This document shows, in pieces, positions 31,101 through 34,100 of a stretch of DNA of 64,000 bases; position 1 is the first letter of the stretch, and every line of letters begins with the position of its first letter. The DNA is from Escherichia coli (GTDB lineage: Bacteria > Pseudomonadota > Gammaproteobacteria > Enterobacterales > Enterobacteriaceae): the NCBI RefSeq assembly GCF_003334405.1, contig NZ_QOWM01000002.1. One strand, written 5' to 3'. A program made the position numbers.

Positions 31101-34100
31101 AGAGTGCGGCGCTATTAGGATTTGATATTGCCGTTGCTGATATTTATCGCGAAAGCCTCAATCCTGAACTATTCCCACCATCAACCACGCTTCTCCATGC
31201 TGAGTCGTTTGGTGCGGCAGTGGAAGCACTGGATATTCGCCCTGATAATTTTGTCCTGATTGCCACGAATAATCAGGATCGTGAAGCCCTCGACAAACTC
31301 ATTGAACAGCCCATTGCATGGTTGGGGTTGCTGGCAAGTCGTCGCAAGGTTCAGCTTTTCCTGCGTCAATTGCGTGAGAAAGGCGTGGCTGAAGAACATA
31401 TTGCCCGTTTACATGCGCCCGTTGGTTACAACATAGGTGCGGAAACGCCGCAGGAGATCGCCATCAGCGTGCTGGCAGAAATATTACAGGTGAAAAATAA
31501 CGCGCCGGGTGGGCTGATGATGAAACCTTCTCATCCTTCCGGACACCAGCTGGTGGTGATTCGCGGTGCGGGAGATATCGCCAGTGGTGTGGCGCTACGT
31601 CTGTATCATGCGGGTTTTAAAGTGATCATGCTGGAAGTGGAAAAACCGACAGTGATTCGTTGTACCGTGGCGTTTGCCCAGGCCGTGTTCGATGGCGAAA
31701 TGACGGTCGAAGGCGTCACTGCTCGCCTGGCAACCAGCTCTGCGGAAGCGATGAAACTTACCGAACGCGGATTCATTCCTGTGATGGTAGATCCCGCCTG
31801 TTCATTGCTTGATGAACTGAAACCGCTTTGCGTGGTGGACGCTATTCTGGCGAAACAGAATTTGGGAACGCGGGCAGATATGGCACCAGTAACAATCGCG
31901 CTTGGGCCGGGCTTTACTGCTGGGAAGGATTGTCATGCGGTAATTGAAACAAATCGCGGGCACTGGCTCGGTCAGGTGATTTACTCTGGTTGTGCGCAGG
32001 AGAATACCGGTGTTCCTGGCAATATTATGGGGCATACCACCCGACGGGTGATCCGTGCTCCTGCTGCAGGCATTATGCGATCCAACGTGAAATTAGGCGA
32101 TCTGGTGAAAGAGGGCGATGTGATTGCCTGGATTGGTGAGCATGAAATTAAAGCACCGTTGACGGGGATGGTGCGTGGCTTGTTGAACGACGGCCTGGCA
32201 GTGGTTGGTGGTTTTAAAATTGGTGATATCGATCCTCGTGGTGAAACCGCTGATTTCACCAGCGTTTCTGATAAAGCCCGGGCGATTGGCGGCGGCGTAC
32301 TTGAGGCGTTAATGATGTTGATGCATCAGGGCGTGAAAGCGACAAAAGAAGTGCTGGAAGTGGCTTAAATGAAAATGGCCGGATGGTATTACCCACCCGG
32401 CCTGAGACTGATGACAAACGCCAAATTGCCTGATGCGCTACGCTTATCAGGCCTACAAGTGCATTGCAATCTATTGAATTTGCGATGTTTTGTAGGACGG
32501 ATAAGGCGCTCGCGCCGCATCCGGCATCAACAAAGCGCACTTACTTGACAATCTTTGGCCGGATGGTATTACCCACCCGGCCTTTAAATTACTGACAAAT
32601 CACCGTTCCTGTTTTGCCTTCAATCCCTTCTTTCGCTTTGCTCAATACGGTAATCAGTGCTTCACGACCTGCGCGAGAGCGAGCAAACGAGGCGGCAGCT
32701 TCCACTTTAGGCAGCATAGAACCTTTCGCAAAATGACCTTCTTCGATAAAGCGTTCAGCATCACTTAATGACAGGCGATCGAGCCACTGTTCATTCTCTT
32801 TACCGAAGTTAATGGCCACTTTTTCTACCGCAGTCAGAATGATCAGCATATCGGCATCAATCATTTCTGCTAAACGGGCGCTGGCCCAGTCTTTATCGAT
32901 AACCGCGCTGGCACCACGCAGATGGTTACCTTCACGAATAACAGGGATACCACCACCGCCAACGGTGATCACCACCTGACCTGCATCTACCAGAGCTTTA
33001 ACCGTTTCTTTTTCAATGATATCAACCGGTTTTGGCGAGGCAACAACACGGCGATAGCCGCGACCAGCATCTTCTTTCAGAGTGTAACCCTGTTTTGTCA
33101 GTTGCTCTGCTTCTTGCTCGGTAAAGAACGAACCGATCGGCTTGGTCGGGTTGAGGAATGCCGGATCGTTAGCGTCGACTTCGACCTGAGTAACCAGCGT
33201 TGCTACAGGTTTATTAATGCCCCGAGAAAGCAGTTCTTCTCTTAAAGCGTTTTGTAGATCGTAACCAATATAACCCTGGCTTAATGCAACACAGACAGAC
33301 ATCGGCAGCATTGGCGAGTGCGCTTCAGTTTTTGCGGCAGCTTCAAAGGCCTGGTTAATCATGCCCACCTGCGGCCCGTTACCATGAGTGACGATAACTT
33401 CATGTCCCTGGGCAATTAAATCAACAATTGCCTGAGAAGTAATTTTTACCGCTTTCATTTGCCCGGCCAGGTCATCGCCCAGCGCATTCCCGCCCAGGGC
33501 GAGAACAATTTTCTTACTCATTTTTCCTCACTCATCATTCTTGATTGTGTATAGATCCCTGGCAGTGGTTAGAGCACGGGAGGGACAAACGGTTTGCGTC
33601 GCAGGAAACGACCTCGCCCGGCTTTGCCTGTAAAGGTGCCGTCACAGAAAATCGTTTCACCACGGGATAAGGTTCTGACAATCGCGCCCTGACAGGTAAA
33701 ACCCTCCCATGGCGAGTAGTCGGCGTTGTCGTGGAGATGGCGATGCTGAATTTGTTGGCTCTGACGTGGGTCGATAATCACCACGTCGCCGTCGGAACCG
33801 GGCGCTAATAATCCTTTTTGCGGCCACAGGCCAAACAACCTGGCGGGCATTGCGCTGGTTAATTCAACAAAGCGTTCCGGTGTTATACGTCCCGTCATCA
33901 CGCCACTGGAAAACAGTAACTGCATGCGGTTTTCCACACCGGGTAAGCCATTTGGGCAGCGACTGAAATCGCCTTTAGAAATTTGCAGGCGTTGAGCCAT
34001 CGAGAAGGTGCAGTGATCGGTTGCCACCACGTCAATCGCACCATCGCTGATGCCACACCACAGTTTGTCCTGCTCGCGTACGTTACGCAGCGGTGGGCTA

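What the first reader, a model, noticed from the sequence alone, without database searches (positions are those of the whole stretch)
32375..32588. REP cluster bracketed by a 28-bp direct repeat that is itself an imperfect palindrome
tggccggatggtattacccacccggcct occurs twice, about 180 bp apart, flanking two REP palindromes between convergent yqeB and yqeA. The arrangement resembles a small composite repeat unit rather than isolated REPs.
Basis: seen in the sequence. Interest (0 to 1): 0.3.

Follow-up and report, generated by a model that had tools for sequence, protein, structure and literature searches.

The report
BIME-1 insertion that duplicated a terminator hairpin
The two identical 28-base sequences are copies of the single terminator-like hairpin between yqeB and yqeA, duplicated when a known 152-base mobile REP pair (BIME-1) inserted there; the same whole-hairpin duplication flanks BIME-1 copies at dozens of other sites, which gives a concrete clue to how REP elements move.

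Summary
An exact 28-mer occurs at 32376-32403 and 32556-32583, 180 bp apart. It brackets two inverted REPs between convergent yqeB and yqeA.

The 28-mer is not a dispersed repeat. In 5,426 complete E. coli genomes it occurs only at this site, once or twice. The DNA between the copies (32404-32555) is a discrete 152-bp BIME-1 (RIP/RIB) unit: arm, Y REP, 35-nt IHF-type linker, Z1 REP, arm. Its ends are imperfect inverted repeats.

1,649 genomes carry this filled site. About 3,500 are exactly 180 bp shorter, with one hairpin and no REPs.

The pattern is general:
- 44 of 106 single BIME-1 copies (37 of 95 independent loci; 64% of complete units) are flanked by a direct duplication of a local hairpin that differs at each locus. 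About one is expected by chance.
- The duplication abuts the element ends.
- It matches a complete stem-loop of 16-38 bp.
- Two further E. coli loci show the same filled/empty polymorphism.

Best reading: BIME-1 integrates at terminator hairpins and duplicates the whole hairpin. The enzyme and chemistry are inferred. No paper I could read describes this footprint, but the 1990s BIME papers were not available.

The parts
30743..32368 (+). yqeB coding sequence (context; stop TAA at 32366-32368)
   Evidence: ORF list; RefSeq annotation under BLAST hits and in MG1655
32376..32403 (.). Left copy of the duplicated target: a 28-nt hairpin. On the - strand it is followed by ATTTTCATTT, so it is the terminator-like site that yqeA transcripts reach after crossing the element.
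   Evidence: Exact repeat; terminator-like call on the - strand, 32402-32377; fold of -22.6 kcal/mol, z = -5.6
32404..32555 (+). BIME-1 (RIP/RIB-type REP doublet, REPIN-like) element, 152 bp, in Y to Z1 orientation
   Evidence: This is exactly the segment absent, together with one 28-mer, from empty alleles. It is 87% identical to the consensus of 31 target-flanked copies, whose modal length is also 152 bp.
32404..32427 (+). Left arm: GAGACTGATGACAAACGCCAAATT. The first 15 nt form the left terminal inverted repeat.
   Evidence: Aligns to the arm consensus with score 44. TIR GAGACTGATGACAAA versus the reverse complement of the right end, CAGATTGCTGACAAA, matches at 12 of 15 positions in the consensus.
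32428..32456 (+). Y-type REP (palindromic unit): GCCTGATGCGCTACGCTTATCAGGCCTAC
   Evidence: Pattern search found a single exact hit in the window. The sequence is identical in the narP-ccmH and uspB-pitA copies.
32457..32491 (.). L linker, 35 nt. It holds an IHF-consensus-like site at 32467-32479 (- strand ATTCAATAGATTG, 8 of 9 specified positions of WATCAANNNNTTR).
   Evidence: Read from the sequence. The linker is 35 nt in all three E. coli copies compared. Rfam ES036/CssrF scores 36.3 bits (gathering score 37.6) at 32449-32491 on the - strand. IHF binding of the BIME-1 L linker is stated in PMC3333891.
32492..32526 (+). Z1-type REP in inverted orientation: GTAGGACGGATAAGGCGCTCGCGCCGCATCCGGCA
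   Evidence: Pattern search; sequence
32527..32555 (+). Right arm: TCAACAAAGCGCACTTACTTGACAATCTT, which contains the right terminal inverted repeat
   Evidence: Aligns to the arm consensus with score 32; the duplicated target starts within 1 nt of the projected element end
32556..32583 (.). Right copy of the duplicated target hairpin. On the + strand it is followed by TTTAAATTA, so it is the distal hairpin for yqeB transcripts.
   Evidence: Exact repeat; fold of -16.7 kcal/mol
32589..33521 (-). yqeA (carbamate kinase-like) coding sequence (context)
   Evidence: ORF list; annotation

Best explanation
The yqeB-yqeA spacer originally held one GC-rich stem-loop with an A-run on one side and a T-rich run on the other. 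This looks like a bidirectional intrinsic terminator for the two convergent genes. A 152-bp BIME-1 unit integrated at this hairpin. The unit consists of arm, Y REP, IHF-type L linker, Z1 REP and arm; it is palindromic overall and has imperfect terminal inverted repeats. The integration left one complete copy of the 28-bp stem-loop on each side.

Shown here:
- The filled and empty alleles differ by exactly the element plus one hairpin.
- The hairpin is unique to this locus.
- The same architecture (local hairpin, element, same hairpin) recurs at many unrelated loci in several enterobacterial genera.
- The duplication abuts the element ends and coincides with a whole stem-loop.

Inferred:
- The two target strands are cut or joined at the two feet of the extruded stem, and repair synthesis copies the intervening stem-loop. 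The result is a variable-length target duplication set by structure rather than by a fixed stagger.
[quoted passage not shown] This was not shown.

Consequence at this locus (inferred): each gene's first hairpin loses its U-tract. Transcripts would run through the REP pair and end at the distal copy, which keeps the U-tract. Both genes therefore gain a REP-containing 3' UTR without losing a terminator. Because the target is palindromic, the two copies are also inverted repeats and the whole 208-nt composite can fold as one hairpin. That should favour precise loss by slippage, so the polymorphism can run in both directions.
For: At this site:
- Exact 28-mer pair, none expected by chance.
- 1,649 of 5,426 complete E. 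coli genomes are filled. The others that have the locus match over a span exactly 180 bp shorter.
- Aligned empty alleles from O157:H7, strain 214-4 and UPEC129 show one 28-mer and no REPs.
- The 28-mer occurs once or twice per genome, only at this site.
- In an evenly spaced sample over 2.2 kb, 16 of 18 filled alleles are at least 99.8% identical to K-12. The 38 empty alleles span 97.8-99.9% and include all sampled ST131, Nissle 1917, APEC O2:K1 and O157:H7 strains.
- Trabulsiella has a single hairpin and no REPs in the same spacer.

Generality:
- The narP-ccmH and uspB-pitA copies are bracketed by their own hairpins.
- Both loci are polymorphic in E. coli (1,505 and 1,942 genomes filled). 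Their empty alleles are shorter by 176 and 173 bp and carry one hairpin.
- 44 of 106 single BIME-1 copies exceed the 99th percentile of a mismatched-flank null. These represent 37 of 95 independent loci and 32 of 50 complete elements.
- 31 of the 44 abut both element ends within 6 nt. The duplications are 16-38 nt, and 29 of 31 fold with dG of -8 kcal/mol or better.
- Median unpaired tails are 0 and 0 nt, and 93% of the duplicated length lies inside the hairpin.
- The element length is modal at 152 bp, with a 12/15 terminal inverted repeat.

Structure:
- The - strand hairpin followed by ATTTTCATTT is called terminator-like.
- Hairpin folds are; the whole composite folds with z = -5.6.
Against: - No donor is visible. 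The core of this copy occurs only at this site in all 5,426 genomes. The element is only 87% identical to the family consensus and 88% to its nearest paralogue. That sits badly with two identical 28-mers if insertion was recent and replicative.
- Empty alleles exist on the K-12-like haplotype (100% and 99.9% flank identity). These could be pre-insertion ancestors or precise excisions.
- Two sampled filled alleles are only 98.6% identical.
- The narP-ccmH and uspB-pitA target copies have diverged yet the sites are still polymorphic, so losses probably occur too.
- Canonical IS200/IS605-type HUH transposition, the model usually invoked for RayT, uses no terminal inverted repeats and makes no target duplication (PMC2817692).
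- rayT in K-12 is flanked by Y/Z2 REPs, not by BIME-1.
- About 60% of loci show no significant duplication. Some have decayed copies, some have 5-7-bp duplications at non-hairpin sites, and some have nothing.
- The only close outgroups found are distant, at 73-81% nucleotide identity.
Confidence: 0.8

Rival explanations
1. Deletion, not insertion: the composite (hairpin, BIME-1, hairpin) is the older state at this locus, and the roughly 3,500 shorter alleles arose by recombination or replication slippage between the two 28-bp direct repeats.
For: - Direct repeats of 28 bp around a 152-bp palindrome are a good slippage substrate; the composite folds as one long hairpin.
- Empty alleles exist on the same haplotype as K-12.
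- Two other loci with diverged target copies are still polymorphic.
- According to my recollection of its abstract and to PMC1187871, Bachellier 1997 described BIME-1 as present or absent among isolates and spoke of 'excision'.
Against: - Filled alleles form a tight haplotype group nested within diverse empty alleles.
- All sampled ST131, Nissle 1917, APEC O2:K1 and O157:H7 strains are empty.
- Trabulsiella has a single hairpin.
- This reading does not explain where two identical locus-specific hairpins came from, nor why 37 unrelated loci show the same arrangement.
- It can account for some empty alleles but not for the structure itself.
Confidence: 0.12
2. Replicative copy-choice rather than transposase-made staggered cuts. 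A replication fork stalls at the folded terminator hairpin. The nascent strand switches to a BIME-1 template, then returns to the other foot of the hairpin and copies the hairpin a second time.
For: - The duplication boundaries sit at the two feet of the stem, which are adjacent in space when the hairpin is folded.
- No enzyme with the required chemistry is identified.
- This model does not need a transposase that makes target duplications.
Against: - Donor and target share no homology to guide the switches, because the hairpins are locus-specific.
- The element ends are sharply defined, with conserved terminal inverted repeats and a constant 152-bp length. That is typical of enzyme-recognised ends.
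- Short 5-7-bp duplications at non-hairpin sites look like ordinary staggered-cut footprints.
Confidence: 0.15
3. One reading: the 28-mer plus the REPs form a composite repeat unit that is dispersed in the genome.
For: The REP pair with its arms is indeed a dispersed 152-bp unit.
Against: - The 28-mer is confined to this one locus in 5,426 genomes.
- Other copies of the unit carry different flanking hairpins.
Confidence: 0.02

Closest known systems
BIME-1, also called RIP or RIB elements (Gilson 1991; Bachellier 1994, 1997; Boccard & Prentki 1993; Oppenheim 1993)
   Same: One Y and one Z1 palindromic unit in inverted orientation, a conserved ~35-nt L linker with an IHF site, about 140-150 bp, single copy per locus, located at 3' ends of transcription units, and present or absent among E. 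coli isolates (PMC3333891; PMC1187871). The element here is a member of this family.
   Different: None of the readable texts mention that the unit is bounded by terminal inverted repeats and flanked by a duplication of a whole local hairpin. Ton-Hoang 2012 contains no occurrence of 'direct repeat' or 'duplicat'. The original 1990s papers were not available, so prior description cannot be excluded.
REPIN / RAYT system (Bertels & Rainey 2011; Nunvar 2010; Ton-Hoang 2012)
   Same: A non-autonomous doublet of inverted REPs able to fold as a long hairpin, thought to be mobilised by a single-copy HUH tyrosine transposase. E. coli K-12 encodes rayT.
   Different: The IS200/IS605-like mechanism attributed to RAYTs acts on single strands, needs no terminal inverted repeats and leaves no target duplication (PMC2817692). 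The footprint seen here has both.
Bacterial MITEs (for example Correia, ERIC/IRU, RUP)
   Same: Small, intergenic and non-coding, with terminal inverted repeats, flanked by a target duplication, and polymorphic among strains (PMC3184786).
   Different: MITE duplications are short and of fixed length, set by the parent IS. Here the length varies from 16 to 38 bp and equals one stem-loop. No parent IS with matching ends was identified.
REP dimers 'inserted within palindromes' in Anabaena variabilis, Thermomicrobium roseum and Halothiobacillus neapolitanus (Di Nocera 2013)
   Same: REP doublets associated with palindromic target sequences (PMC3733652 section 7).
   Different: Those are described as insertions inside one palindrome with a family-wide consensus. 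They are not duplications of a complete, locus-specific hairpin on both sides.
Group IIC introns, and IS elements that target terminator or REP hairpins (from my own knowledge; not checked here)
   Same: Target choice by DNA secondary structure at intrinsic terminators or REPs.
   Different: As far as I recall, those insertions do not duplicate the hairpin.
Precise excision of Tn5/Tn10 by slippage between target duplications, helped by the inverted repeats (from my own knowledge; not checked here)
   Same: Direct repeats flanking a long palindrome give precise loss that restores the single target. This is a plausible route to some empty alleles.
   Different: It concerns loss only, and involves 9-bp duplications with kilobase-long inverted repeats.

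Membership tests
BIME-1 (RIP/RIB) | One Y-type and one Z1-type palindromic unit in inverted orientation, GTAG/CTAC tails facing the linker | tested here: met
   Y REP at 32428-32456 ends in CCTAC and Z1 REP at 32492-32526 starts with GTAGG. The site matches the core pattern used for the collection scan.
BIME-1 (RIP/RIB) | Long, conserved L linker carrying an IHF consensus site | tested here: met
   The linker is 35 nt, the same length as in the narP-ccmH and uspB-pitA copies. It has 8 of 9 IHF consensus positions at 32467-32479 (sequence). Rfam ES036 scores 36.3 bits on the linker. Actual IHF binding was not testable.
BIME-1 (RIP/RIB) | [quoted passage not shown] | tested here: met
   One unit lies between the stop codons of convergent yqeB and yqeA.
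BIME-1 (RIP/RIB) | Conserved outer arms flanking the two palindromic units | tested here: met
   Arm alignment scores are 44 and 32 against the consensus, and the whole unit is 87% identical to the 31-copy consensus.
REPIN mobilised by RAYT | REP doublet able to fold as one long hairpin | tested here: met
   The consensus folds at -60.5 kcal/mol. The locus folds at -46.2 kcal/mol as DNA, z = -5.6.
REPIN mobilised by RAYT | A cognate RAYT gene in the same genome | tested here: inconclusive
   MG1655 encodes rayT (b0228), but it is flanked by Y/Z2 REPs rather than BIME-1. No RAYT gene lies in the window or in any of the 120 fetched BIME-1 loci, and whole genomes could not be searched.
REPIN mobilised by RAYT | Mobilisation depends on the RAYT | not testable with these tools
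   This needs genetics or in vivo junction capture.
IS200/IS605-type (HUH, single-strand 'peel and paste') transposition | No terminal inverted repeats and no target-site duplication | tested here: not met
   The element has a 12/15 terminal inverted repeat and a 28-bp target duplication here, with 16-38-bp duplications at 37 loci. The defining feature is as stated in PMC2817692.
MITE | Terminal inverted repeats | tested here: met
   GAGACTGATGACAAA versus CAGATTGCTGACAAA.
MITE | Target-site duplication of a fixed length typical of the parent IS | tested here: not met
   A duplication is present, but its length varies from 16 to 38 bp and equals a stem-loop.
MITE | A parent autonomous IS with the same ends | not tested
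   No way was available to scan whole genomes for paired ends 0.7-2.5 kb apart.
Intrinsic (Rho-independent) terminator, as the identity of the target | GC-rich stem-loop followed by a U-tract | tested here: inconclusive
   The - strand copy at 32402-32377 followed by ATTTTCATTT passes the consensus scan, while the + strand copy followed by TTTAAATTA does not. Across loci, 17 of 31 have at least 6 T in the 9-nt window at the 3' edge and 15 of 31 have at least 6 A at the 5' edge. Termination itself was not testable.

The most novel reading that the evidence does not exclude
BIME-1 (and perhaps REP doublets generally) integrates by a structure-directed reaction at extruded terminator stem-loops and duplicates the entire hairpin. 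The resulting target duplication has a length set by the hairpin (16-38 bp) rather than by the enzyme. This would be a general and so far unrecognised footprint. It is incompatible with the IS200/IS605-style mechanism usually assumed for RAYTs, and it turns the 40-year-old question of how REPs spread into something that can be assayed directly with terminator traps and junction sequencing.
Probability: 0.4. Interest if true: 0.65.

Novelty: new variant of a known kind. Interest (0 to 1): 0.5.

Why it matters
REP/BIME elements are the most abundant repeats in E. coli, yet how they insert is still described as not established (2026 preprint).

A reproducible footprint puts hard constraints on the mechanism. 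That footprint has three parts: sharply defined inverted-repeat ends, a constant 152-bp unit, and duplication of a whole local hairpin. It shows the preferred target, namely terminator stem-loops. It also explains why BIME-1 sits at 3' ends of transcription units and why its insertion is tolerated, since each gene keeps a terminator. Finally, it provides a simple computational signature for dating and counting gains and losses across thousands of genomes.

For annotation, paired identical 'terminators' around a REP doublet should be read as one ancestral terminator.

Tried and rejected
- RefSeq annotation of MG1655 no longer carries REP/RIP features, so the site's curated name could not be read.
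- Three older papers are not held: Bachellier 1997 (PMC1207841), Boccard & Prentki 1993 (PMC413762) and Gilson 1991 (PMC333889). Seven full-text searches and ten papers that could be read gave no description of hairpin duplication at BIME-1 flanks.
- Two polymorphism queries built from E. coli SCPM-O-B-8794 loci were uninformative. Their unique flanks were too short or too divergent, so BLAST ranked other BIME copies first.
- I looked for an orientation bias of the element relative to the T-tract and found none (13 versus 11).
- I looked for a RAYT gene in the fetched loci and found none.
- I looked for a donor copy of this element in 5,426 genomes and found none.
- Insertion into the hairpin loop was considered and rejected, because it would split the hairpin rather than duplicate it.
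- Site-specific integration of a circle carrying its own hairpin was considered and rejected, because the flanking copies are locus-specific and identical to the empty-site hairpin.
- Chance similarity of two independent terminators was rejected: the match is 28 of 28, and the mismatched-flank null has a 99th percentile of 22 against an observed score of 56.
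Full report
**1. The observation.** The 28-mer TGGCCGGATGGTATTACCCACCCGGCCT occurs exactly twice in the window, at 32376-32403 and 32556-32583. 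The copies are 180 bp apart, and no match appeared in 100 shuffles even with three mismatches allowed. The bases on either side differ between the copies, so the repeat is exactly 28 nt.

It is an imperfect palindrome. On the + strand it forms a 6+3-bp stem with an A/C mismatch (-16.7 kcal/mol). On the - strand it forms a 10-bp stem with one G-U pair (-22.6 kcal/mol). The asymmetric loop and the mismatch are the same in both copies, so the duplication is direct, not inverted.

Between the copies lie a Y-type REP (32428-32456) and a Z1-type REP (32492-32526) in inverted orientation. The flanking genes are convergent: yqeB ends at 32368 and yqeA ends at 32589.

**2. The 28-mer is not a dispersed repeat.** A search of 5,426 complete E. 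coli genomes found the exact 28-mer in 3,883 of them. It occurs once or twice per genome, 5,324 places in all, with none on plasmids and all listed hits in one intergenic stretch.

**3. The site is a presence/absence polymorphism of exactly one period.**
- With 361 bp around the site as query, 1,649 genomes match in full. The others that have the locus match over 181 bp, which is 180 bp less.
- Aligned empty alleles from O157:H7, strain 214-4 and UPEC129 show the yqeB stop, one 28-mer and the yqeA stop, with no REPs.
- The B2 strain UPEC129 carries a C-to-T variant that makes the + strand stem perfect.

**4. What lies between the copies.** The 152 bp at 32404-32555 has homologues at other loci whose limits coincide with those of this segment (hits H38 and H39). 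At narP-ccmH and uspB-pitA the homologous unit is also bracketed by two copies of a hairpin, but a different hairpin at each locus.

The unit consists of a left arm, Y REP, a 35-nt linker with an IHF-like site, Z1 REP and a right arm. This is the BIME-1 (RIP/RIB) architecture described in the literature (PMC3333891; PMC1187871). Rfam's ES036/CssrF family scores just below its gathering threshold on the linker.

**5. Generality.** One scan of the species-representative genome collection for the BIME-1 core (Y tail, 30-40 nt, Z1 tail) returned 120 stretches. They came from E. albertii, E. coli, E. whittamii, Pseudocitrobacter, Citrobacter, Kosakonia and others.

For 106 non-tandem copies I aligned the left flank against the right flank of the same copy. 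As a control I aligned left flanks against right flanks of other copies (4,000 pairs; null mean 14.6, 99th percentile 22).
- 44 copies exceed the 99th percentile, with scores up to 56.
- After merging orthologous sites, these are 37 of 95 independent loci.
- Among the 50 copies with both arms intact, 32 are significant. Several of the rest show decayed copies of a hairpin, or 5-7-bp duplications at non-hairpin sites.

**6. Anatomy of the junctions.**
- In 31 of the 44 significant copies, the repeat abuts both projected element ends within 6 nt, usually within 0-1 nt.
- The duplicated segment is 16-38 nt (median 22). In 29 of 31 cases it folds with dG of -8 kcal/mol or better (median -14.8, against -3.4 for control segments).
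- It coincides with a complete stem-loop. The median unpaired tail is 0 nt on each side, 93% of its length lies inside the hairpin, and 28 of 31 are symmetric within 2 nt.
- A-runs precede the left copy and T-runs follow the right copy about equally often, so there is no orientation bias. Many targets look like bidirectional terminators.
- The DNA between the copies has a modal length of 152 bp (range 146-159).
- Its ends are GAGACTGATGACAAA and, in reverse complement, CAGATTGCTGACAAA, which match at 12 of 15 positions. The unit as a whole is a long imperfect palindrome.

**7. Further polymorphic loci.**
- uspB-pitA is filled in 1,942 of 5,426 genomes, and the empty alleles are 173 bp shorter.
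- narP-ccmH is filled in 1,505 genomes, and the empty alleles are 176 bp shorter.
- In both cases the empty alleles carry exactly one hairpin, identical to one of the two flanking copies of the filled allele.
- All three K-12-type loci examined therefore behave alike.

**8. Direction of change at yqeB-yqeA.** I sampled 2.2-kb haplotypes at even steps down the ranking.
- 16 of 18 filled alleles are at least 99.8% identical to K-12, and two are 98.6%.
- The 38 empty alleles range from 97.8% to 99.9%.
- The empty alleles include all sampled ST131, Nissle 1917, APEC O2:K1 and O157:H7 strains.

Filled alleles are thus nested within the diversity of empty ones, which points to a gain.

Outgroups are distant (73-81% nucleotide identity). 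Trabulsiella has a 37-bp spacer with one hairpin and no REPs. An unidentified enterobacterial lineage carries a different REP doublet in the same spacer, which is an independent occupation of the same site.

Some empty alleles on the K-12-like haplotype may be precise losses. Because the target is palindromic, the two copies are also inverted repeats, and the 208-nt composite folds as one long hairpin (z = -5.6). That is a good substrate for slippage.

**9. Mechanism.** What is shown is the footprint: a constant-length unit with inverted-repeat ends, flanked by a direct duplication of one whole local stem-loop, with empty alleles that carry a single stem-loop.

What follows by inference is that the two target strands are broken or joined at the two feet of the stem, and that repair synthesis copies the stem-loop. 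The duplication length is then set by the structure. The short duplications at non-hairpin sites suggest a small stagger measured across the junction of an extruded cruciform, but this is only an idea.

The enzyme is unknown.
- RayT is the usual candidate and is present in K-12.
- IS200/IS605-type chemistry uses no terminal inverted repeats and makes no target duplication (PMC2817692).
- rayT is flanked by Y/Z2 REPs, not by BIME-1.
- A copy-choice model at a hairpin-stalled fork is the main mechanistic rival.

**10. Consequence for the two genes (inferred).** In the empty allele one hairpin can serve both convergent genes. After insertion, the proximal copy for each gene has lost its U-tract, and the distal copy keeps it: ATTTTCATTT for yqeA, called terminator-like, and TTTAAATTA for yqeB. 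Both transcripts would then extend through the REP pair before ending. This would explain why such insertions are tolerated, and why BIME-1 is found at 3' ends of transcription units.

**11. What does not fit.** The core of this copy exists only at this site in all 5,426 genomes. The element is 87% identical to the consensus and 88% to its nearest paralogue. Within-genome nearest-neighbour identity is 85-92% in all the species sampled. Two identical 28-mers therefore contrast with a diverged element that has no donor.

Possible reasons:
- a cut-and-paste move from a site since vacated;
- a donor outside the sampled genomes;
- selection or gene conversion keeping the hairpins identical.

I could not decide between these.

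**12. Literature.** BIME-1, its IHF site and its presence/absence among isolates are known. None of the readable texts mention terminal inverted repeats plus hairpin duplication:
- Ton-Hoang 2012 has no occurrence of 'direct repeat' or 'duplicat'.
- A 2026 preprint says the insertion mechanism is not fully established.
- Di Nocera 2013 notes REP dimers inside palindromes in three unrelated species.

The original 1990s papers were not available, so an earlier description cannot be excluded.

**13. Verdict.** The element is a known kind (BIME-1) at a known kind of polymorphic site. The 28-mer pair is its target duplication. The general footprint of whole-hairpin duplication appears to be an undescribed property of this family, subject to the check on the older literature.

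Noticed in passing
window 2500-2680: A second REP cluster (Z2/Y-type, BIME-2-like or atypical) lies between convergent ORFs 1834-2493 (+) and 2689-3669 (-). It contains a 28-nt internal direct repeat, GATAAGACGCGCCAGCGTCGCATCAGGC, at 2515-2542 and 2634-2661. These are two REP copies, not a flanking target duplication.
   Followed up: partly
window 32449-32491 (-) and 32495-32531 (+): Rfam 'sRNA' families ES036/CssrF (36.3 bits, gathering score 37.6) and naRNA4 (partial match, 27 bits) hit the BIME-1 linker and the Z1 REP. These families appear to be pieces of BIMEs.
   Followed up: no
window 32404-32555, against 5,426 E. coli genomes: No donor: the core of this BIME-1 copy occurs only at this locus in every genome that has it. 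The nearest paralogue is 88% identical, yet the two flanking 28-mers are identical. This is unexplained.
   Followed up: partly
L003:372-412 (UPEC129, phylogroup B2, empty allele): The single hairpin carries a C-to-T change that turns the A/C mismatch into a base pair, giving a perfect 10-bp stem on the + strand (-21.4 kcal/mol).
   Followed up: partly
L132:3434-3536, L133:3434-3537, L134 (Logan contigs, ~80% nucleotide identity to E. coli yqeA/yqeB): A different, shorter REP doublet (tails CTTATCGGACCTAC and GTAGGCCCGATAAG, 16-nt linker) occupies the same yqeB-yqeA spacer in another enterobacterial lineage. Trabulsiella (L135) has only one hairpin there. The spacer seems to be a recurrent landing site.
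   Followed up: partly
L046, L062, L121 (flanks listed): Some complete BIME-1 units sit at non-hairpin sites with short flanking duplications (ATAGCAT; CATAC). This suggests hairpins are the preferred target but not an obligatory one.
   Followed up: no
L011:6977-7477 (E. albertii): Four tandem BIME-1-like units with a 147-148-bp period, each separated by a short GC-rich spacer. BIME-1 is usually described as single-copy per locus.
   Followed up: no
L036 (262-bp contig labelled Desulfosporosinus sp. OT): This contig carries an enterobacterial BIME-1 core. It is probably contamination of that assembly.
   Followed up: no
window 32256-32540 (-): A 94-aa ORF runs through the BIME-1 element and the 3' end of yqeB. 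It is almost certainly spurious.
   Followed up: no
L131:1463-1637 and 2136-2358 (MG1655 rayT flanks): rayT is flanked by Y/Z2-type REP pairs with short linkers (BIME-2-like), not by BIME-1 units with arms and an L linker.
   Followed up: partly
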